From the NCBI GenBank assembly GCA_036172245.1, contig JAYWIR010000034.1, positions 558,001-622,000 on the forward strand: DNA of 64,000 nt, read 5' to 3'. Below are positions 1 through 43,013 of this stretch, one piece after another (the first letter of the stretch is position 1; each line of letters begins with the position of its first letter). The notes under the pieces are model-generated. The model worked only from the letters and a program-made list of their open reading frames with translations. It did not search any database and had not been told where the DNA came from. The stretch is from Raillietiella orientalis. Taxonomy: Eukaryota. The position numbers and the translations under genes were made by a program.

Positions 1-3000
1 AGGAACTGTCAGGAGAATGTCTCCCCTGCATGCTATCTGGAAAACGGGAGTTGCGCCGTTCTGTGGAAGTTAGATGGAGATATGGAAACGAAATGAAGAC
101 CTGCTGTTCTATGAAAAGGATCAGGAAGAGGTTACGAATTCTGGTCTGAAGGAGCATGTCAGAAGAGTAAGCAAGCATGGTGCGGATTACCGATGATGTG
201 CGCAACTGGAACAGGGAATGTAAGATCACTGAAAATTCACAAAAATTTCAAAGACTGCAAGTGCAGTTTCTAACGGCTTCTCATAGCCCAACTCTCACAG
301 CTGCCGAGGGAAAAATGTACCAGCACTTCGAGGTAACCACCATCCAAGAGTTCGGATCATAGCTTCTCTCTCTCTTCTCTCTGTAGGTGGTAACTAGTCT
401 TTCCTCTATCGATCTCTCGAAAGGAAGACAAAGGAGTTGTCAGTAAATGTGAACTATACAAAACCTTTAAAATCTCAAAGAAAGCTCAACGGTTATCGCA
501 TTGACTGAGAGTTCTAGATACGTTAGCCAGATGTTTCAAGTATCAGTGCCCTTTCTGATACTCCTATCCTGGCTTGTATCTTCATAACTAGTAGGTTCTC
601 TCTCCTTTTCTTGTCACATACTAATGCTAAAATCATACTCGTCATCTCTTCGTAATAGCCTCAAGATCAACTGGGCTTCTAGATGAATGGCATTCACAGT
701 CCACTGGCTTGTGATAAATAAATAGAGGTTGAAAACTGGATGTCGTGAAACTCCGACCATCGCCTTAGCTGAACCGAATGATCATCTCAGACAGCTGAAT
801 TGCAACGGAAGCACAAAAGAATGCTTATTGTTCTGAAACAAGACAATTTGATTTCCTAGGTGATCCCGGACGGTGGCACGTGAACGACGGCAAACAGACA
901 AAACCAAACCAACTGTTGATTCTCCTCGGGAGGAACTGATAACGGATCCTGGCGTGTTCTCAGCGTCTCGAGGAGGCAAGTTTCCGGGATAGCGAGGCTT
1001 TACTCCCGTCTCGATTGCACACAACCTGCAACCAGTGAGAATTCTTTGAATTACTCTTCCGGGAACTCTTCCGAAAACACGTGGAAGCAGGATTTCTGCT
1101 AGCTAGGAAAGTTCTCGTAAAAGAAATTGGAATCAACAATCAACGAAAGAGAATGGATCTCAAAGACAGGGCATGCCTCCGCAGCGTGGAGGAAAGGTCA
1201 TTGAATCCTATGCAGCTCTCAAGGCGAGGACCCTTCTATTTTCATCTGGTCTTCATTAGGCAGGCTTAAGAGAGGTACGAATGGGAAAAAGTTTCCATTT
1301 GAAAGAATTTTCCGGTCTGGGTGGCAATCCCGTCTACCTGTACTCAACAAGAGGATGTGGTTCGCGGTGGGGGTCTCATGCTTTCGGGATATGTTTCCAA
1401 AGTTGTGGACGGCCCTACTTACCGAACAGGACGAAAATCTTCCGAATCCGGGATGCTGAGACCAAACTTCCTCTGGACATAATCGTTGCAAGGGTCCCAT
1501 TGCTCTTGAAGCATGATGGCGGCTACCATGAGTCTTTCTAATCACATCAGGGAACAACAAATTTGTCCCGTGCTCTTACAAGGGGCTTCTGCTTGCTGTC
1601 GAATGGGAAGATGATGTGATCGGTAATGGCTGCGTATGTGGAGAACGAGACTGCAATTGATGAATTCAGCAGATGAGTCGAAGGTTCCATCCGTAAGGAA
1701 GTGTTTCTTATTCCCGAGAGAAGAAAGGTGCGTTCAAGGCAGTTTATTGGATGTTCTAACGGAAAAGTTCCACAGAAGAAACAGGAAGAGGGACCTTTGC
1801 GAAAACACAAAGCTTGTACATGTACTTGTGGGCTCAGTGGAAGAAGTTCTGTTCTTCCTTGCTTTAACGAACGGGCCAGTAGGAGAAGTGTACGGCTTGC
1901 GGACGCATGTACTCTGTACCTGCAGATCCTCTCGATGCTACTTTCCTGCTAGTCGATAAAGCGGCAATCGAAAACAAGTAAGCAACAAGGAATGAATGAA
2001 GCATGCTTGCGTGAAGACGCGGCCTCTTCTGGAAGTTGGATTGCAGGAACGGAGGAAACGATCACCTCAGAGGTGATCTCGTCTTTCGTTTCTGACTTCT
2101 GCTGCAGCTGCGTGATGTTGCCGAGGTTCTCAGTGCGACGAACAAAGACGCCACAGGGAAAGTCGCTATATGGAAGGGAACGAAGCGAAGCGACTTGCAG
2201 CTTGGATGATGAGTGCAAATTCGGAAATGAGTCCAGCTTGCAGAAGAGAGAAAAACTGATCTAAATCATCAGAGATTCCATATCAGCGAAAAGCTATAAA
2301 GAAAATCGAAGAAACTAATGGAGCCTTGATGAAAGTAATTGTGGAATTTTGACTATCCGCGAAAACCAAAGAGTGTCGGGATGCGAGATCAATGGGAGTG
2401 CAAAGACCTTGTTGATTGCCTGAAAGCCGATAATCAGAGCGGACTGAAGGTACACCCACGAAATCCCAATGCGGATAAAAGCAGTGGCGATCCTCGTGTC
2501 TTGTTCTAAGCTTCCCTTGCAAGGCATTTCATTTGCGATTGCATTTTTGTTGAATACAGGCACGGAAGAAAGATCCTAGGCTTTCGGTGTCTTGGGATTT
2601 ATTGCGAAAGGAAAAGACACCTCAAAAGACAAATTTGTGTTCCTACGAATAGCAACATTCCGATCAAAAAGTTGAAATTCGGGAGTAAAGGCACGAGAGT
2701 TCCTTTCATGAAATGCCAGCTTTCAATTTAGTGCATTAAAGGGAAGCCTGACTTCAGGGTATAAAAGCGAATCTTCATGCGAACATGACATCTTCCGCTT
2801 CGGATAGGTTGATGGGTTGCCCTCACGCACTCACACTACTTTTGGAAGCTCGAATGCTCGAATTCTTGCTTTGAAAATTCCCGTCTTTAGGGCGGAACTC
2901 ATGGGCCCAAATCAAAAACTGTTATCCCCTAAGGGGGAAAAAAAAAAAAAAAGTGTTTGTTCGATAACCGTAAATTTGACCTTTCTCTTTCGAGAGGCAC

Positions 3001-34498: not shown

Positions 34499-34591
34499 GC
34501 GTAATGATTTGCGCAAGTTAGTTCGTTGGTTGTATATCAAGATTTTGTTAATTATTCTGCGAGTGAGTTGCTTAGTCTTTGTAGGTTGTTG
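34499..34591 (+). repeat. Terminal direct repeat of the viral insert, left copy
   Basis: gcgtaatgatttgcgcaagttagttcgttggttgtatatcaagattttgttaattattctgcgagtgagttgcttagtctttgtaggttgttg; matches 36563-36656 with 5 substitutions and 1 indel. Confidence 0.95.
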
Positions 34592-35188
34592 TCTTTAGCT
34601 CAACAGTTTGAATTTGTTCGTCTTATTGGAGTAAGGTGGACTTTTGAACAATTATCGGAAAGTTATACTGATGAAAGTGAAGTTCCTATTGGATCGTTTA
34701 ATGTGGAAGGAAATTACAGTCATGTGAATTACGTTATATTGACTAATCCAGCTGAGGAGTAGCCTTTTAATAAGTTTTATGATTTGAAGTTTAGCGAATG
34801 TATGAAGAATTTTGCTTGGCATCACTTCATTCTTCTACAAGTTTAAGCAAAGGGATGAGTCTGCATATAGTAGATGTTGTGTGGAGAAGCAGATTGTATT
34901 GACCTCGAAGGGCGACTCTGTACTGTATATAGTCGTCCAAGATGTCCATGGTTAAGCACTGAAAAAACCACTGGAATAAACTCTTTCCTGCTGATCGGAC
35001 GTCCCATCATTTGTAAACACATCGTTGGATTTAAGGTACCAGCCGAGTGGACGCAAGACAAAACTATTAAAGAAGTCCAAGGGATTAACAAAAATGCACC
35101 AATGTTTCGAATTTGGAGAAAATTTTATTTTCAATTGAAGAGAGCCAGAGACATTAGATATTATAGAGAGGATACGTATTTGTTATGA
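34499..35188 (+). pseudogene. cap: CRESS virus capsid protein, central and C-terminal part
   Basis: VVYQDFVNYSASELLSLCRLLSLAQQFEFVRLIGVRWTFEQL...SRPRCPWLSTE...MFRIWRKFYFQLKRAR...YLL*. Resembles circovirus-type jelly-roll capsid motifs (F-YYRI-KVKV-F, PW, terminal YVQFR strand). Overlaps the N-terminal part via the terminal repeat; has internal stops. Confidence 0.75.
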
Positions 35189-36149
35189 CTGATTTGTAGT
35201 GTGTTTACTTCTTTCGTTGATGAAGTGGACTATCCATCTATCGAACTCATTTTTTCATACAGTGAGGATCCATGTTGGCGAAAATCATGACATGTGGACT
35301 TGGGAACATCTTTACATGTCCTTGACATTTTGTTGAGAATGGTATTCCATTTTTTATGGTTTCCATCAACCCATAATTTATCATCTCCTATACATCTTTT
35401 GTGAGGTCCATAATAACTATCTTCTGTCCATCGTACATATAAGTGGCATCAGCTTTTTTGCAGTTGTTCAAGTAAAGACCATCGTACTTTATACATATAT
35501 GTATATATATATATGTTTTGCAGCTGTTGTCTTGCCTGAATTGCCCTGATAGTCGGTGAGCCAGTGGATGTCTCTATCGTTTGGTTCAGTGGAAATGATG
35601 TCAATTAAATTCTTTTGCCATTGTGGTAAAGCCTTTCCTTCTATTGGATCTTGGTTTTAGAATTTTGGAGATCGAATGGTGTCGTTTGTGAATTGCCTAT
35701 GTTTGTCGTACACATCAGGCTTTCCTTTCCATATCCATTTCTCACTTTTTCCATTGTGTATCCAATCTTGTATCTGGAAATATCTGTTGTTGATAACTGT
35801 TTCAAATAGATATATTTGCACCTGTTTGTAGATGTTTGTTTTCATTTCCGTTTGTAGTCGTCCATATATCCAAAGGTTCTTTGTCTTCTTTCGTGCAGTA
35901 ATCTGCAGCTTGTTTTGGAGTTCCTCTGCTTGATTCTATGTGCGCTCGTCTGAATTCTATTCTATTTTTTTTAGTTTTGGTATTGCTGTCGGATCTACTA
36001 GTTGAAAGCATCCTTGGATATGTTTGGTTCCTTGGATGCCAATTTCTTTTGCTAGAATTGCATGAGAACATTTTTCTTTTAACTAGGTTTCAAGTAATTC
36101 TTCTTCGTTGTTAGTGTATGCACCAGTTGTTGCTCACAGCGTAAGGCAT
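35183..36149 (-). pseudogene. rep: CRESS virus replication initiator protein (HUH endonuclease plus SF3 helicase), pseudogenised
   Basis: ATG at 36149 (MPYAVSNNWC, degenerate motif I); motif II TKHIQGCF (36011-36022); AHIESSRGTPKQAADYCTKE motif III (35886-35900); WQKNLIDIISTEPNDRDIHWLTDYQGNSGKT Walker A (35528-35545); IVIMDL Walker B; INYGLMETIKNG..FSTK; PHVMIFAN motif C; DRW arginine finger; TAA at 35183-35185. Several stops and frameshifts. Confidence 0.95.
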
Positions 36150-36200
36150 CTTGTTTTGAGGGTGCTGGTTCGTACCCTGAGGTTGTATATAGTAGTTGTC

Positions 36201-36234
36201 AAGGTCAAGAGGATAGTATTACCCTCTTGACCTT
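36201..36234 (+). other. Rolling-circle replication origin stem-loop with nonanucleotide TAGTATTAC (36214-36222)
   Basis: aaggtcaagagg-atagtattac-cctcttgacctt: a perfect 12-bp stem with the canonical circovirus/nanovirus nonamer in the loop, lying between the Rep and Cap starts. TATATA at 36186-36191 lies on the Rep side. Confidence 0.96.
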
Positions 36235-36302
36235 TGAGTTGTTTACAAGTATTCTGCGTTGAGGAAAATTGATTCCCGGAAGGAGGGGGGGGTTATGTCG
36301 TG

Positions 36303-36656
36303 ATGGTGTATGTAACTCGTGGTAGATATCGTTCTTATCGAAGGCGTTTGTTGGCGTATCGTAATTTGAGGAGGCGACGTGCTGTCGCACGTCTCCGCAG
36401 ACGTAATTAAAGGTCGCGTAATTATCGTGGTCGTAATTATTTGCGTAAATTAGCTTGGACTGGTCCTTTGGTTCGTTTGTCTAGTAAATTGAAGCGTGGA
36501 TGTTTGGATGTTACAAAACGGCATATTGTGGTTACGGATACTGTGTATTTGAATTTTTTGAAGCGTAATGATTTTGCGCAAGTTAGTTCGTTGGTTGTAT
36601 ATCAAGATTTTGTTAATTATTCTGCGGGTGATCTGCTTGGTCTTTGTGGGTTGTTG
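36303..36656 (+). pseudogene. cap: CRESS virus capsid protein, Arg-rich N-terminal part
   Basis: MVYVTRGRYRSYRRRLLAYRNLRRRRAVARLRRRN*RSRNYRGRNYLRKLAWTGPLVRLSSKLKRG...VVYQDFVNYSAGDLLGLCGLL; a single premature TAA at 36408-36410 interrupts an RNY repeat. Confidence 0.88.
36563..36656 (+). repeat. Terminal direct repeat of the viral insert, right copy
   Basis: Matches 34499-34591 at an offset of 2064-2065 nt. Confidence 0.95.
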
Positions 36657-38342: not shown

Positions 38343-40200
38343 ATGGTGGCTGCGGCACCCTTGCCTCCGGCAGCTGCCGAAGCGTAGGCCTACCACGTCT
38401 CAGGCCATAATCCATACCTGAGATATAAGGTAGGCCCTTTGTATGACCTTTCGGTAGCGCGCTTCTTCTCGGAGGAGCTGCAGAGACTGCAAATCAAACC
38501 GGAAGAGCTTTGCGCGCTCTCCGTTCTGGCCGAGGAAAGGGTCGTTGAGGTGGCTTTCAAGGACCCGAGCCTGGCCTAGCGACTGTCGCGAACCCCGATC
38601 GTGATCGGAGGGCGTAGCTCCTCCCGTAAAAGAGGACCGCTCCCTGATCTTGCACTCACCGGCATTACGGTAAGGACGACCAAGAAGGTGGTCCACCAGA
38701 AATTGGAGGAGTTGCAGGACGGTGCACGCACTGTGGGCGAAGCCCCGCATCTTCCCTGAATACCAGGGATCTGCATGTCTGATCACTAGCCTCGCAGCGG
38801 CACGCATTACCGTCCACGAAGGGGGGACGCTACCCTACAGATTGGACGTCGACGGGGAACCCGTCGACATCTGGTACGAAGGGATTCTCCTTGTGTGCGC
38901 CCACTGTGGCAAGTCGCAGCACCGGAAGAGGGGGTGCCCCGACATCGAGTGCTACCGTTGCTGCGCGAAGGGACGCATCCAGTTCGTGGGCCCCTCTTAC
39001 GGCCGCCATCCGGTCAAACATGCGTCGGCTATAAAAAAGAAAAAAAAGAGCAAAAAAAATAAAAATAAAAATAAAAAGAGTAAGAAAAATAAGAAGAACC
39101 GAGCGCTCACAGCTGATTCCACATCGAAGACCATTCTGGAAAGTGACCAGCAACCAGCGGCATCCACCACACCTGCACCTGAGGCAAGCAGCCATGTAGA
39201 AGCAGAATAGAGGGAAGAGGAAACAAGCTGAGTGCAAGTTTTCTTTTTTCCACTATTTGTTTTTTCCGGTAGGAAAAAACAAATAGTGGAAAAAAGAAAG
39301 GGGAAAAAACCGCCGATTGCTCGCGAAGTCATTCCACGACTCGCGAAAATAAAAAACGTGGAAGCTGTGGCGCAGCACATCGTCTCACCTCATAGGGAGA
39401 GTAGCAAGGTCGCACAACCCGCAACCGGGAGCACGGTAGACGGGACCTGCAACATGCAGGTCGTCAAGGTTGTTGACCTAGCGGCAGCCCTGCAAACCTC
39501 CCGGCAACCTCTGGAAAGCGCCCTAGAGTCATGACGCTCGCGGCCACGAGAGTCGCTCGGGACGCTATACGCAGGGCCACCGCGCAAGAATAGCTCTACC
39601 TGACCTCCGAGGTAGAGACGAACGCTGAACTGGCGCCTCCCGTGCAGGGACTACGCCACAAGACCGCGCTCCATGTAGAAGCGGTCCACAGGGAAGTGTC
39701 CCTGCAAGGGGGGAACGACGCTGGTTCTGACCCAAAGATGGAGGAAGGCTCACAGGACTCCTCCATGGAGACAGCCCCGCCCTTCCCGCCGCAAGGTGAA
39801 GAGGGCATAGGGCGTGCCACGGAAGTCCGGGAAATGCCTTCCCCCAACGAGAACGCGCCACCTGCAAGCCAGAAGGGAGCCGCACTGCCAGATTCCCAGA
39901 AGCAATGCGCGGAGTCGCGTACTCCCGTCGCTTGCGCGTGCCCCTTTGGAACGTGAACGGCCTGCAAGGCGTCGGGAAGAGACGCGACAAAGCCAACGTC
40001 CTACGAAACTTCGACTTGGTGCTCCTCCAAGAGATTCACGTGATCTCGGACGAGGATGCCGCCGACTTCGAATGGATCGCGGGTGGAAAGCTTCATTGGC
40101 GGTGTGGCACCAGTAAATCGAGAGGGGTGGCATTCCTGATACAGCCAGCCACCATGCGTGCGGTGCATAGCGTGCGATTCGACGTTGTCACCTGGTCACG
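38343..40200 (+). mobile_element. 5' half of an L1/Tx1-like element: ORF1 with two CCHC knuckles plus the start of the ORF2 APE endonuclease
   Basis: LPYRLDVDGEPVDIWYEGILLVCAHCGKSQHRKRGCPDIECYRC (ORF1), then LWNVNGLQGVGKRRDKANVLRNFDLVLLQEIH...SKSRGVAFLI (APE motifs WNVNG, LQE, RGVA). Confidence 0.88.
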
Positions 40201-40402
40201 CCAGAGCGTTTATTAGAAGCTTGACCATTTTTGCGGTATAAGGCCGCAAAAATGATCAAGTTTTTAATTCTTTGAGTTGAAGTAGCCCCCAGTGATGAAG
40301 GAAGCAAGGATCCTTTCCCTGAAGTGGCAAGAGTCGGCGCTGCTGCTGTTGCAACGGGTCTCCCCCGCCGCGCGCGCTGCCACCACTGGACGCTGGGGAG
40401 TT

Positions 40403-42550
40403 CCCACCCGGTCACACCGGGGCGTTTATTTCTAAACACAGTATATTTGCGGTACTAGGCCCGCTACGGCCAATGGTTCATGGTGCCTGCCGGGTCGCCG
40501 GCGCGCAGACAGGCGCGACTCTCCTCGGCAGCGGTGGGGAATGGGGAAAGAACAAAAATAAAAATAAGAAGAAAACAAAAAAAGAAACACTCCGGTGGTC
40601 TGGGAAGGGATCACTGTCCACCAAAGGAAGAGACAATCCTTTCCAGGATGCCCTCGAGGTCCCTTTGCATGGCTCCCAGAAGGGACCAGCCGATCGCGAT
40701 TCGCAGGTAGCGACCCGCGTGTACGATGGGATCCCTATCGCTGCTTCCTCTGTTGGCTGCGCTCCACTCAGCCACAATCCCTCGAAGGCAGTAGAGCGCT
40801 GCCAGGGTTGAGGCTGGTGGCAGGGCGTCTCGCACGAAGAGGAGTCTCACAACGTCTCTGGGGGTACTGCCGACCGGCATAGGGAGGGTCGTAGCATAAC
40901 GTTCCCACAAGGGCCGGAGGGCAGCTCAGTCCACTAACAGGTGGGGAAGGGATTAATTTTCCCCGCACACGGCACAGTTCTGTCCCACGTTCCCCAACGT
41001 CCAGTCGTGGCGGCGCGCGTTGCAGGGGGTACCCCAGTGCAACAACAGCGCCGTTTCCTGCCACTTGAGGGCAGGGTGGATGCGTCTCTAAATAACGGGG
41101 GCCACTCTAGGTCATCCGCCGGGATGCCAAGCAGCTCGCCCCATCTCCGTATTCCATGCGGGTGAACGCTTGGGGTTGCGGCGTCTGCCAGTTCCCTCAT
41201 TGTCCACCCGCTTAGATCCTTCTCCTTGCCCGCTATCCGGCAGGAGACTTGCCATCTCGGCTTCCGGCTGTTTTGAAGCGCCCTTCGTAGGAAGGGCAGC
41301 CCTGTGGCCAGTGGGGTCGTCTCCGCCCAAGTGCTTCTGGCGGGACACTCGATCATGTTCTGCAGCGTGCAGTGGGTGTAAATGCCGGTGCGCAGGCGGT
41401 TGCAGGATTCTCCACTGATGTGTTTCAACTTTGCCCACGTTCCAACTGTTTCTTCCAGCCATGCGCTGGAGTTGGCGGGGCTGCAGGCCATCCATCCGTT
41501 CTCCTTTGACAGGGTGGCCATGCGTCCCAGGAGAAGTCCTTATCTTCTTATTTTCCGGCCGGGGCACAGAAGAAAAGACGCGAGTCCTTCAGTCCCGGAC
41601 ACACGTCTGGCGAGAAGGCGTGCTGGAACGCACCAAGGGGTGCTCCACATTTTCGCTGCGATGGCTAGAGTACGCCACCGCAGCTGTGTTTCCATTCGCT
41701 CCATCGTCAGGACGCTAAGACCTCCGTGCCGACGTGGAGCGCTCAAATTCTTTAAAGGCAAACGAGACCTCCTGCCGCCCCACAGGGGGATGCGTAGGAG
41801 GTCCTTTGTTCTTTTTTTCAGTTCACGGGGTACGGGGCAAACAAAAAGCAGGGGGCGAAGGAGGGGGGCCGCGAACGCGTTTCACACCGCAGCCCGTTCC
41901 GTCAAGTGAAGCTTGTCTTCCAGGAACGGGCCGATCGCTGACTCCACTTTTTGGAGACGACCTGACCAGGCTTCTGACTGGCAGAAGTCCCCCAACGTAA
42001 CGCCGAGGTACTTCAAGTACCTCTCCGTGGGGATCCCCAGGCGGATTCAATCAGGTCGTCCTGCCCACTTTGCACCAACCGCAACCAGCGACGACTTCGT
42101 TCTGCTCACCCGTAGTCCTGTCCACGGCTCAGCAAGTCGAAGAAATCTTCGACTGCCGAAGCCGGGGCGGACATGGGCAGCAGGAGCAAAAGATCGTCAG
42201 CATACGCCGACACGGCCGGCGTACCTGGACACGAGCTTGAAAGGGCAGCCAATGTCACCCTGTATGCTCTCAGCACTAGTTCGAAATAGGTGCTAAAGAG
42301 CAGGGGACTCAGGCTGTCGCCCTGCCGGATGCCGCGCCTCACCGGCACGCCGAACACGTGCTGTCCTCTGAAAAACAAGTTGATGATCGCATTGCGCCAG
42401 TAGGCGCGCAGGTAGGCCGTTAAGGTGTCCGGGAAGCCCATGCGATCCAGGAGCTCCAGAAGGAGTTCCTGGTCCACGCAATCGAACGCTTTGTGCAGAT
42501 CGACTGCGATCGCTAGAGCCCCCTTCCCTTCCCGGTCGTCCCTTCCCTGC
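40403..42550 (-). mobile_element. L1/Tx1-like element: RT core to 3' end
   Basis: AVDLHKAFDCVDQ...RGIRQGDSLSPLLF...SAYADDLLLLL, FKYL, GGLS, zinc finger remnant, ORF2 end Q* at about 40611, and 3'-terminal aataaacgccccggtgtgaccgggtg at 40405-40430. Confidence 0.92.
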
Positions 42551-42659
42551 CCCGCTGGCGCTCCCAAATCAGGGTTGCCGACATTCCGTTCTTTTTCCTT
42601 TTTTTCCTCGACCATGTAAGAGTTTAAATAAATGTCACGGCGTACCCGGGTGGCATCAT

Positions 42660-43013
42660 CAAACCCAGGGGGCAGGCTGTGCATGGGGAACTCCTCGCAG
42701 AATTCGCGGACAGAGGCCTTCATGCGGTCCCACTCCGTGAGATTCCGGAGGGACAGCTTGCTGGCATCCTCCAGAGGATGACGGACCCTCCCAGCAGACA
42801 GTGATCCCTTACCGTTCCCACCCCAGTTTTGTTTATTTTTTTGTTTTCTTTTTGTTTCAATCCCCCTCCCCTCTGCTGCCGAGGTCGACCACACCGGTCT
42901 GTGCACCGGGAACCCGGCAGGCTGAATGTATCTAGGACGTGGCTGGACTACTGGTCCAGTCACAGTTTATAGAGGTTTGTTCGTAAGAATAAACGTCCTG
43001 GAGCAACCAGGTT
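42660..43013 (+). mobile_element. Short 3' end of an L1/Tx1-like element
   Basis: LAGILQRMTDPPSRQ* ending in cagtgatccctt (42799), T-rich UTR, and terminal aataaacgtcctggagcaaccagg (42988-43011). Confidence 0.75.

What the first reader, a model, noticed from the sequence alone, without database searches (positions are those of the whole stretch)
35183..36656. Unusual module combination: nanovirus/alphasatellite-style Rep helicase, circovirus-like Cap, cyclovirus-like strand layout
Seen: the helicase reads WQ..L...I..EPNDR.I.W..D..GN.GKT / IVIMDLT / INYGLMETIKNG..FSTK / PHVMIFAN / DRW. Established: this pattern resembles Nanoviridae, alphasatellite and related Reps rather than the circovirus G.PG.GKS / WWDGY / DDFYG type. 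Cap has an R-rich arm and circovirus-like strands, and the nonamer sits on the Cap-sense strand with Rep complementary, as in cycloviruses. Inference: the virus is neither a circovirus nor a multipartite nanovirus, and may belong to an unclassified or recombinant CRESS lineage.
Basis: partly seen in the sequence, partly recalled or inferred. Interest (0 to 1): 0.72.

Follow-up and report, generated by a model that had tools for sequence, protein, structure and literature searches.

The report
Decayed endogenous CRESS-DNA virus genome copy
This is a broken, fossil copy of a small circular single-stranded DNA virus genome lodged in a eukaryotic chromosome; its mix of gene types is common among unclassified viruses of this kind.

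Summary
The motifs and the strand layout are real. They lie in a decayed endogenous copy (34499-36656) of a 2,065-nt ambisense CRESS-DNA virus genome, carried as 1.045 units with a 93/94-nt terminal direct repeat. Rep (minus strand, 36149-35183) can be read only by changing frame five times and passing four internal stops. The putative Cap (plus strand) carries six in-frame stops. A 12-bp stem-loop with TAGTATTAC sits on the Cap-sense strand.

The helicase is of the widespread "GNxGKT / IVIFD / KNGxxFSxKY / PHVxVFAN / DRW" type. It has 1,392 database relatives. Named structural neighbours include the banana bunchy top virus master Rep and alphasatellite Reps. Porcine circovirus 2 Rep is not detectably similar in this part. 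"Neither circovirus nor nanovirus" therefore holds.

"Unusual" and "recombinant" are not supported. Four of ten metagenomic relatives with a recognisable origin have the same layout. Eight of 20 unclassified arthropod CRESS genomes in a published table have it too. Chimeric Reps are reported as the norm.

"Circovirus-like Cap" is unsupported, because every Cap search and the fold prediction failed. Placement among named families could not be tested; no named reference sequences could be fetched.

Verdict: ordinary in kind, a new member of a known kind.

The parts
34499..36656 (.). Whole insert: 2,158 nt, equal to 1.045 units of a 2,065-nt circular CRESS-DNA virus genome. GC is 37.9%, below the 42-60% of 1-kb windows either side.
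   Evidence: Self-comparison and repeat spacing of 2,065 nt. No similarity continues beyond either end. Composition.
34499..34591 (+). Left copy of the terminal direct repeat, which lies inside the Cap gene.
   Evidence: 93 nt against 94 nt, 5 substitutions and 1 single-base indel, 93.6% identity.
36563..36656 (+). Right copy of the terminal direct repeat. Host sequence follows from 36657.
35183..36149 (-). Rep pseudogene (HUH endonuclease, oligomerisation region, SF3 helicase), about 321 codons, with five frame changes and four internal stops.
   Evidence: Three-frame translation and alignment to 203 relatives. Stop positions. It is the only Rep-like locus in the window.
36114..36149 (-). Rep start and first half of HUH motif I (..NNWC..). 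A stop at 36111-36113 ends this frame.
35960..36133 (-). Second half of motif I (YTNN) and motif II (GTKHIQG). In-frame stop at 36083-36085.
   Evidence: Pfam Viral_Rep 8.5e-5, profile positions 9-58 of 82. Alignment.
35805..35972 (-). HUH motif III with the catalytic tyrosine (AADYCTKE).
   Evidence: Pfam Viral_Rep 0.0038, profile positions 53-82 of 82. Alignment.
35492..35845 (-). Linker/oligomerisation region, the WQ..L...EPNDR.I.W..D box and Walker A (GNSGKT). In-frame stop at 35657-35659.
   Evidence: BLAST against relatives reaches 3e-13.
35487..35521 (.). TA-rich microsatellite between Walker A and Walker B, at the point where the reading frame changes.
   Evidence: Sequence. Skipped as a repeat by read laying.
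35250..35489 (-). Walker B (IVIMD), the KNG..FS.K box and motif C (VMIFAN). In-frame stop at 35388-35390.
   Evidence: phmmer finds 1,392 hits; the best Rep hit is E 3.8e-16 at 54% identity. Pfam RNA_helicase 0.0014. AlphaFold2 model with pLDDT 88.3.
35183..35284 (-). Rep C-terminal tail with DRW (the likely arginine finger). Stop at 35255-35257, final stop at 35183-35185. It overlaps the end of Cap by 6 nt.
36150..36302 (.). 153-nt intergenic region between the divergent Rep and Cap starts. It holds the origin of replication.
36201..36234 (+). Origin stem-loop: 12-bp stem and 10-nt loop ATAGTATTAC. The nonamer TAGTATTAC is at 36214-36222 on the Cap-sense strand.
   Evidence: (I7).
36303..36656 (+). 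Putative Cap, 5' part: arginine-rich arm (21 R/K in the first 50 codons). In-frame stop at 36408-36410.
   Evidence: The frame is continuous with 34508 onward across the repeat.
34508..35188 (+). Putative Cap, remainder. It reads in one frame with in-frame stops at 34760, 34844, 34856, 34868 and 34871; the natural stop is at 35186-35188. Another frame is open at 34812-34955, so a pair of frameshifts there is an alternative reading.
   Evidence: No homologue was found.

Best explanation
**What it is.** The element is an endogenous viral element. It is a germline-integrated, slightly longer-than-unit-length copy of a monopartite, ambisense, 2,065-nt circular Rep-encoding ssDNA virus (phylum Cressdnaviricota). 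It sits in a eukaryotic chromosome and has since decayed.

**How the ancestral virus worked (inferred from established knowledge of this virus group).**
- The strand carrying TAGTATTAC was the packaged strand, and it was Cap-sense.
- Rep was expressed from the complementary strand of the double-stranded replicative form.
- Rep's HUH domain nicked the nonamer in the loop of the origin hairpin and primed rolling-circle replication.
- Rep's SF3 helicase unwound the template.
- The arginine-rich arm of Cap bound the ssDNA inside a small icosahedral shell.

**How it integrated (inferred).** The host-virus junctions lie inside cap, not at the nonamer, and 93/94 nt of cap are duplicated at the two ends. 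This points to end-joining of a linear, greater-than-unit-length replication intermediate. It does not point to Rep-mediated integration.

**Present state.** The copy now has no protein function. Rep needs five frame changes and has four internal stops. Cap has six in-frame stops.

**Where it belongs.** Its Rep belongs to the very large, mostly unclassified cloud of CRESS Reps whose helicase resembles that of nanoviruses and alphasatellites rather than circoviruses. That helicase type combined with a cyclovirus-like (type II) layout and an arginine-armed Cap is common in this cloud.
For: **Anatomy.** Rep (967 nt), the intergenic region (153 nt) and Cap (951 nt), less a 6-nt overlap, add up to the 2,065-nt repeat spacing.

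**Rep identity.** HUH motifs I-III, Walker A and B, motif C and DRW align with the consensus of 203 relatives. The helicase piece has 1,392 relatives at E<=1e-3. Pfam gives Viral_Rep and RNA_helicase.

**Origin.**

**Endogenous and dead.**
- Broken frames and stops.
- The terminal repeats have diverged by 5 substitutions and 1 indel in 93/94 nt.
- Element GC is 37.9%, below its surroundings.
- The flanks show no viral similarity.
- The neighbourhood holds non-LTR retrotransposon fragments: RVT_1 at 7e-13 and Exo_endo_phos at 3.5e-4.
- No prokaryote genome is held for the window.

**Helicase type.**
- Foldseek against BFVD gave 44 hits at E<=1e-3. They include the BBTV master Rep (rank 10, E 6.9e-6, 32% identity).
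- Two BBTV satellite/alphasatellite Reps are ranks 42 and 48.
- No named circovirus or cyclovirus is among the named rows of the 50 listed; about half the rows carry no name.
- PCV2 Rep is not found by sequence. It is rank 36, E 1.3, by Foldseek against the PDB.
- A profile of 98 relatives plus the element's helicase piece matches PCV2 Rep chain 7lar only over its HUH and oligomerisation part, residues 14-161 of 314.

**The layout is ordinary.**
- Of 43 Rep-bearing metagenome loci, 10 show a nonamer in a stem: 6 Rep-sense and 4 opposite, as here.
- L048 and L055 are ambisense, with an R/K-rich-armed Cap on the nonamer strand.
- In Rosario 2018 Table 3, 8 of 20 unclassified genomes are type II.
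Against: - No independent individual or related host genome could be examined. The single public run found holds only two 151-nt pieces identical to the window, and it may be the source sample.
- Cap is called a capsid gene only from its position, orientation, size and basic arm. No homologue was found.
- Placement among named families was not tested, because no named reference sequences could be fetched. The element could still fall inside an established family.
- The loci used to judge how common the layout is were picked by a helicase motif pattern. Only 10 of the 43 had a recognisable origin.
Confidence: 0.85

Rival explanations
1. One reading: the source virus had an unusual, possibly recombinant, mix of modules from different families (nanovirus-type helicase, circovirus-type Cap, cyclovirus layout).
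For: - The helicase piece resembles nanovirus and alphasatellite Reps but not PCV2 Rep.
- The nearest neighbours differ between the two domain trees: P0251 in the HUH tree and P0013 in the SF3 tree. Distances to the element in the two trees do not correlate (Spearman -0.14).
- The Caps of relatives with the same layout are satellite-tobacco-necrosis-virus-like (Pfam TNV_CP). The element's Cap does not match them, so Cap modules do differ among these genomes.
Against: - The sister groupings have weak support (0.80 and 0.45). The element sits on branches of 1.34 and 1.13 substitutions per site, so the incongruence is within noise for a decayed pseudogene.
- The 'circovirus-like' Cap has no support.
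- The same helicase type with the same layout occurs in unrelated metagenomic genomes.
- Published work reports that layout does not track phylogeny and that domain shuffling is the rule (PMC6186406 and PMC5923481; passages read). The mix would therefore not be unusual even if the source virus were chimeric.
Confidence: 0.12
2. It is an endogenous copy of a virus from an already named family. The main candidate is Draupnirviridae (genus Krikovirus), which is known to have left whole-genome copies in insect and reptile genomes.
For: Kinsella and van der Hoek 2023 (PMC10193959; sections 6 and 7 read) report:
- Rep and Cap paired in 17 of 36 cases, showing integration as whole genomes, with many stops.
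- A Cap judged circovirus-like by HHpred.
- Element GC below that of exogenous viruses.

The window is not CpG-depleted (observed/expected 0.86). That fits an invertebrate host better than a vertebrate one.
Against: - The same paper uses Circoviridae, Vilyaviridae and CRESSV1 as outgroups for this family. Kazlauskas 2018 places CRESS1-3 basal to Circoviridae.
- Here, by contrast, the helicase shows no detectable similarity to the circovirus helicase but does match a nanovirus helicase.
- No krikovirus sequence could be fetched, so this is an argument and not a test.
- The supplements of the paper that were held gave figure legends only.
Confidence: 0.15
3. It is a free virus genome wrongly joined to host DNA by the assembler, or sample contamination.
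For: - The element is complete, with an intact-looking origin hairpin.
- It is more than one unit long, as assemblers often render circles.
Against: - A replicating virus could not carry five frame changes and four internal stops in Rep plus six stops in Cap.
- An assembler's terminal redundancy would be identical, not 6% diverged with an indel.
- Host-like sequence continues on both sides within one 64-kb stretch.
Confidence: 0.03

Closest known systems
Whole-genome endogenous cressdnavirus elements (for example krikovirus-derived elements in reptile and insect genomes; Kinsella and van der Hoek 2023, PMC10193959)
   Same: - Rep and Cap are integrated together as a whole genome.
- Both genes carry many stops.
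- GC is lower than the surroundings.
- It is a fossil of a small ambisense CRESS virus (for the paper; here).
   Different: - Family membership was not tested.
- The helicase here is not detectably circovirus-like.
- The Cap has no detectable relative.
- The host DNA is not CpG-depleted.
- Here the origin hairpin and a diverged 93/94-nt terminal redundancy are both preserved.
Unclassified type II CRESS-DNA viruses of invertebrates and environmental samples (Rosario et al. 2018, PMC6186406, Table 3), and metagenome contigs L048 and L055
   Same: - Genome of about 2 kb.
- TAGTATTAC or CAGTATTAC in a stem-loop on the Cap-sense strand, with Rep on the complementary strand.
- Cap with a basic arm.
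- Rep helicase with the E..KNG..FS.KY box.
   Different: - Rep pieces are only about 29-48% identical to these loci.
- Their Caps match Pfam TNV_CP. The element's Cap does not match them.
- Those are free genomes; this one is integrated and dead.
Nanoviridae master Rep and alphasatellite Rep
   Same: The helicase C-terminal part is similar. The BBTV master Rep scores E 6.9e-6 at 32% identity, and BBTV alphasatellite 2 Rep is at 31%. The shared motif style is my own recollection, consistent with that result.
   Different: - Nanoviruses are multipartite, with segments of about 1 kb (PMC11945456, passage read). Alphasatellites lack a Cap.
- Here Rep and Cap share one 2,065-nt circle.
- Unnamed metagenomic Reps are closer, at up to 54% identity.
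Cyclovirus (Circoviridae)
   Same: Ambisense layout of about 2 kb, with TAGTATTAC on the Cap-sense strand (type II; for the convention).
   Different: - The helicase piece has no sequence match to PCV2 Rep and only E 1.3 at 15% identity by Foldseek.
- There is no Pfam circovirus-capsid match.
- No cyclovirus sequence itself was available for comparison.

Membership tests
Cressdnaviricota (CRESS-DNA virus) genome | Rep with HUH motifs I, II and III | tested here: met
   WC|YTNN (split by a frameshift), GTKHIQG and AADYCTKE align to the consensus of 203 relatives. Pfam Viral_Rep scores 8.5e-5 and 0.0038 on two pieces, each below the 26-bit gathering score.
Cressdnaviricota (CRESS-DNA virus) genome | SF3 helicase with Walker A, Walker B and motif C | tested here: met
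   GNSGKT, IVIMD and VMIFAN. 1,392 relatives at E<=1e-3. Pfam RNA_helicase 0.0014, at 19.6 bits against a 21.5-bit cut-off.
Cressdnaviricota (CRESS-DNA virus) genome | Origin: NANTATTAC-type nonamer at the apex of a stem-loop | tested here: met
   TAGTATTAC in the loop of a 12-bp stem, z -5.5. It is the only copy in the window.
Cressdnaviricota (CRESS-DNA virus) genome | A capsid gene | tested here: inconclusive
   An ORF of the right size, position and orientation with 21 R/K in its first 50 codons. No homologue was found and the fold was unusable.
Circoviridae (Circovirus / Cyclovirus) | Rep helicase related to the circovirus helicase | tested here: not met
   phmmer of the helicase piece against the PDB gave 0 hits at E<=10, with PCV2 Rep present. 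By Foldseek, PCV2 Rep ATPase is rank 36, E 1.3, 15% identity. The relatives' profile matches PCV2 Rep only over residues 14-161. Only PCV2 was available; no cyclovirus was.
Circoviridae (Circovirus / Cyclovirus) | Circovirus-type capsid protein | tested here: inconclusive
   No Pfam family at E<=10. The PDB search gave only three chance-level matches to unrelated proteins (best E 0.23). A decayed gene may simply be undetectable.
Circoviridae (Circovirus / Cyclovirus) | Genome-wide identity above 55% to members (threshold as quoted in PMC6186406) and Rep nesting in the family clade | not testable with these tools
Cyclovirus-type (type II) layout | Nonamer on the Cap-sense strand, Rep complementary, genes divergent from the origin | tested here: met
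   Not specific to the genus: 8 of 20 unclassified genomes in Rosario 2018 Table 3 and 4 of 10 relatives with an origin share it.
Nanoviridae / Alphasatellitidae | Multipartite genome of about 1-kb single-gene circles (nanovirus), or a Rep-only circle (alphasatellite) | tested here: not met
   Rep and Cap lie on one 2,065-nt unit.
Nanoviridae / Alphasatellitidae | Rep nests with master Rep or alphasatellite Rep in a tree | not testable with these tools
   Only similarity was measured: 31-32% identity to BBTV master Rep and alphasatellite Reps. Unnamed Reps are closer, at 44-54%.
Draupnirviridae / Krikovirus | Rep nests in the CRESSV3 clade | not testable with these tools
   No reference sequences were available. 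The paper's supplements that were held gave figure legends only.

The most novel reading that the evidence does not exclude
The element may be the only known trace of a family-level cressdnavirus lineage that has no sequenced free-living member.
- Its Rep is at most 54% identical to any cluster representative over the best-conserved 70-odd residues, and about 30-45% over the other pieces.
- Its Cap has no detectable relative in the word-indexed search of the 5.8-billion-protein collection.

If so, it also gives a direct host link, to a eukaryote without CpG depletion, for part of the large cloud of host-less metagenomic CRESS viruses with nanovirus-like helicases.
Probability: 0.3. Interest if true: 0.5.

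Novelty: new member of a known kind. Interest (0 to 1): 0.3.

Why it matters
- Endogenous copies are among the few direct clues to the hosts of CRESS-DNA viruses, most of which are known only from metagenomes.
- This copy is nearly complete. It keeps Rep, Cap, the origin hairpin and a terminal redundancy that records how it was linearised. It therefore documents both a past infection of this host lineage and a route of integration that did not use the Rep nick site.
- The divergence between the two terminal repeats gives an internal clock, once a host mutation rate or an orthologous copy is known.
- It does not bear on the claim of an exceptional gene combination, because such combinations are ordinary in this group.

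Tried and rejected
**Rep searches that gave little**
- Close relatives in IMG/VR: none, using the Rep piece.
- Word-based homologue search with the Walker A piece against longer proteins: 24 candidates, none significant.
- Rep profile search: 224 hits at E<=1e-5 among 4,301 candidates. The source names were only 'hypothetical protein' or 'Putative viral replication protein', so no family labels resulted.
- Alignment-based locus searches were rejected for lack of a conserved stretch.
- A motif pattern in IMG/VR gave one hit, in a 61-kb contig; I took it for chance without checking the translation.

**Cap searches that failed**
- IMG/VR, with both Cap pieces.
- Pfam at E<=10.
- PDB: only chance-level matches to unrelated proteins, best E 0.23.
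- The word-indexed search of the 5.8-billion-protein collection: 207 candidates, none at E<=0.1.
- phmmer against 1,338 ORFs of the fetched loci: best E 0.89.
- Profiles of the relatives' STNV-like Caps: best E 0.62.
- ESM Atlas on the 104-aa C-terminal ORF: best score 0.89, to unrelated bacterial clusters.
- Single-sequence AlphaFold2 of the 226-aa reading with X at the stops: pLDDT 32.6, unusable.

**Structure searches with the 80-aa helicase model**
- Foldseek against the PDB: nothing at E<=1e-3.
- VIA-align wide: best Z 5.0, to unrelated alpha/beta folds. The fragment is too small to be diagnostic.

**Other**
- Host genome: none is held.
- Rfam on the whole window: no match.
- Earlier findings of this scan: nothing by place, sequence or words.
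- Sequencing runs: one coded DNA run with a small share (0.08). Two 151-nt contigs are identical to 35594-35744 and 35913-36063, and one 38-nt partial match is probably unrelated. No RNA holder is listed.
- Domain trees gave no supported placement.
- Host-domesticated gene: rejected because both genes are broken.
- Rep-mediated integration at the origin: rejected because the junctions lie in cap.
Full report
**Anatomy**

Between 34499 and 36656 the window holds 2,158 nt that differ in composition from their surroundings. GC is 37.9%, against 42-60% in neighbouring 1-kb windows.

The first 93 nt (34499-34591) recur as the last 94 nt (36563-36656) at 93.6% identity, with a spacing of 2,065 nt. 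No similarity continues beyond either end. The insert is therefore 1.045 copies of a 2,065-nt unit.

Inside the unit:
- The minus strand carries a Rep gene, 36149 down to 35183.
- The plus strand carries an ORF with an arginine-rich start, from 36303. It runs in one frame across the repeat (36573 corresponds to 34508) to a stop at 35186-35188.
- The 153 nt between the two divergent starts hold a hairpin.

Rep (967 nt), the intergenic region (153 nt) and Cap (951 nt), less a 6-nt overlap of the 3' ends, add up to 2,065 nt. The whole unit is accounted for.

**The observation**

All of them align to the consensus of 203 related Reps: WQ..L...PD.R.I.W..D..GN.GKT, IVIFD, NY..IE..KNG..FS.KY, PHV.VFAN and DRW. 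The HUH motifs are there too: WC|YTNN, GTKHIQG and AADYCTKE.

This is far beyond chance:
- The 80-aa piece with Walker B and motif C finds 1,392 proteins at E<=1e-3 and 131 at E<=1e-10 among 1.84 billion.
- The best Rep hit is E 3.8e-16 at 54% identity. I dropped one listed hit, P0002, a repetitive non-Rep protein.
- Pfam reports Viral_Rep and RNA_helicase on separate pieces, each just under its gathering score because the pieces are short.

The nonamer TAGTATTAC occurs once in the window, where 0.04 are expected. It sits in the loop of a 12-bp stem that no shuffle matched. It is on the Cap-sense strand, so the layout claim is correct.

**What the finding's text leaves out**

The gene is broken. 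Rep can be followed only by changing frame five times (1>2>1>2>1>2). One of the changes falls in a TA-rich microsatellite between Walker A and Walker B (35487-35521). In the frames used, Rep has internal stops at 36083, 35657, 35388 and 35255.

Cap has in-frame stops at 36408, 34760, 34844, 34856, 34868 and 34871. Four of these cluster where another frame is open (34812-34955), so a pair of frameshifts there is an alternative reading.

Several further observations point the same way:
- The two terminal repeats have diverged by five substitutions and one indel.
- The surroundings hold non-LTR retrotransposon fragments.
- The window has no long ORFs typical of a prokaryote.
- No prokaryote genome is held for it.
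- CpG is not depleted, at observed/expected 0.86.

The element is an endogenous viral element in a eukaryote, not a working virus genome. A free virus or an assembler's artefact would not carry these lesions or a diverged terminal redundancy.

**Helicase type**

I folded the 80-aa helicase piece with 98 relatives as its alignment (pLDDT 88.3) and compared the model with named viral proteins.

In BFVD, 44 proteins match at E<=1e-3:
- The two best carry no name in the tables at hand (54% and 44% identity).
- Named hits include the banana bunchy top virus master Rep (rank 10, E 6.9e-6, 32% identity).
- They also include a BBTV satellite Rep (rank 42) and BBTV alphasatellite 2 Rep (rank 48, 31% identity).
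- Other named hits are 'Cruciviridae sp.', 'uncultured virus' and loosely named 'Circoviridae sp.' entries.
- About half of the 50 listed rows carry no name. Among the named rows there is no named circovirus or cyclovirus species.

Against solved structures, the PCV2 Rep ATPase domain is rank 36 at E 1.3 and 15% identity. A redondovirus Rep is rank 10 at E 0.6.

By sequence, the piece has no PDB hit at E<=10 although PCV2 Rep is there. A profile of the relatives matches PCV2 Rep chain 7lar only over its endonuclease and oligomerisation part, residues 14-161 of 314.

The closest relatives, however, are unnamed metagenomic Reps.

**Is the combination unusual?**

I fetched metagenome contigs carrying the E..KNG..FS.KY box.
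- 43 of the 119 loci then held encode a Rep of this type.
- 10 of the 43 have an NANT[AG]TTAC nonamer in a stem of at least 7 bp.
- Of those 10, 6 have it on the Rep-sense strand and 4 on the opposite strand, as here. The other 33 had none, and many are partial contigs.
- Two of the four, L048 and L055, are clearly ambisense, with an R/K-rich-armed Cap on the nonamer strand.

Published data agree:
- In Table 3 of Rosario et al. 2018 (PMC6186406, section 10 read), 8 of 20 unclassified arthropod-associated genomes are type II. Three of them are about 2.0-2.1 kb with TAGTATTAC.
- The same paper states that genome organisation does not correlate with phylogeny (passage read).
- Kazlauskas et al. 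2018 (PMC5923481, abstract and passages read) report that 71% of unclassified CRESS Reps are chimeric between the nuclease and helicase domains.
- Kinsella et al. 2022 (PMC9615429, passages read) extend the numbering of unclassified lineages to CRESSV39.

A CRESS genome that is neither circovirus nor nanovirus, with this layout, is the expected case.

**Recombinant?**

I aligned the Rep pieces to 203 relatives of 265-400 aa (taken from the 266 kept of 267 proteins fetched) and built FastTree LG+gamma trees. The HUH tree used 97 columns and 192 relatives, after dropping 11 for low column occupancy. The SF3 tree used 135 columns and all 203 relatives.

The element sits on long branches, 1.34 and 1.13 substitutions per site. 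Its sisters are weakly supported: P0251 at 0.80 in the HUH tree and P0013 at 0.45 in the SF3 tree. Distances to the element in the two trees do not correlate (Spearman -0.14). For a decayed pseudogene, in a data set chosen by helicase similarity, this neither shows nor excludes chimerism.

No protein is close overall. The best total BLAST scores come from Reps that are 28-64% identical on individual pieces.

**Cap**

The basic arm is real, with 21 R/K in the first 50 codons. Such arms are common to many ssDNA virus capsids. [quoted passage not shown]

All searches failed; they are listed under Tried and rejected. The single-sequence fold had pLDDT 32.6.

The Caps of relatives L004, L048 and L055 match Pfam TNV_CP, the satellite tobacco necrosis virus coat. 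A local iterative search linked ORFs of three further loci (L029, L068, L079) to them. The element's Cap does not match their profiles. Its type stays unknown.

**Family placement**

Named reference sequences could not be obtained.

One lead is Draupnirviridae/Krikovirus. That family is documented to have left whole-genome, stop-ridden, low-GC copies in insect and reptile genomes, with a Cap judged circovirus-like by HHpred (PMC10193959, sections 6 and 7 read). That family is treated as a neighbour of Circoviridae, whereas this helicase is not detectably circovirus-like. I rate the lead at about 0.15, but it is untested.

**Mechanism**

Shown:
- The gene order and the strand of the origin.
- The motif complement.
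- The junctions inside cap.
- The terminal redundancy and the decay.

Inferred from established knowledge of CRESS-DNA viruses (recalled, not from a call):
- Rep nicks the nonamer in the hairpin loop of the packaged strand and starts rolling-circle replication, with the SF3 domain as helicase.
- The packaged strand is the nonamer strand, which here is Cap-sense.
- The arginine arm binds DNA.

Inferred from the anatomy: a linear, greater-than-unit-length double-stranded intermediate was joined into a chromosomal break. The ends are in cap rather than at the nick site, and 93/94 nt are present twice.

**Verdict**

The circovirus-like Cap is unsupported.

The object is a nearly complete endogenous CRESS-DNA virus genome, a new member of a known kind. 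It is of modest interest as a host link and as a record of how the genome integrated.

Noticed in passing
window 38722-39210 (+), 39905-40216 (+), 42106-42966 (-): Fragments of non-LTR retrotransposons lie next to the element. One is an ORF with what look by eye like CCHC zinc-knuckle spacings (no Pfam hit), followed by an A-rich tract. Another has an endonuclease/exonuclease/phosphatase match (3.5e-4). On the other strand there is a reverse transcriptase (RVT_1, 7e-13).
   Followed up: partly
whole window: CpG observed/expected is 0.86 throughout, at 50% GC. The host DNA is not CpG-depleted as vertebrate DNA usually is. GC rises to 55-60% from about 38 kb to 50 kb.
   Followed up: partly
window 35487-35521: A TA-rich microsatellite lies inside Rep, exactly where the frame changes between Walker A and Walker B. 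It probably expanded after integration.
   Followed up: no
window 36194-36243: Short repeats surround the origin hairpin. GTCAAG occurs twice in tandem (36198-36209) in the left stem arm. AGTTGT lies on both sides of the hairpin (36194-36199 and 36238-36243, seen by eye). These could be Rep-binding iterons.
   Followed up: partly
protein P0001 (database hit, 354 aa): The best-scoring database protein holds two tandem copies of the Rep helicase half without an endonuclease domain. It may be a tandem or concatemeric Rep-derived insert in another genome.
   Followed up: no
loci L004, L029, L048, L055, L068, L079: In these six loci an ORF beside or opposite a Rep of this helicase type groups with satellite-tobacco-necrosis-virus-like capsids. 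Pfam TNV_CP scores 8.9e-12 for L055, 2.1e-7 for L004 and 4e-4 for L048. L068 had no Pfam hit, and L029 and L079 were not scanned. All six were linked by a local iterative search.
   Followed up: partly
window 1551-1694 (+): A marginal tblastn match (E 0.004, 39% over 49 aa) of one related Rep's helicase region, far from the element. It is probably chance.
   Followed up: no
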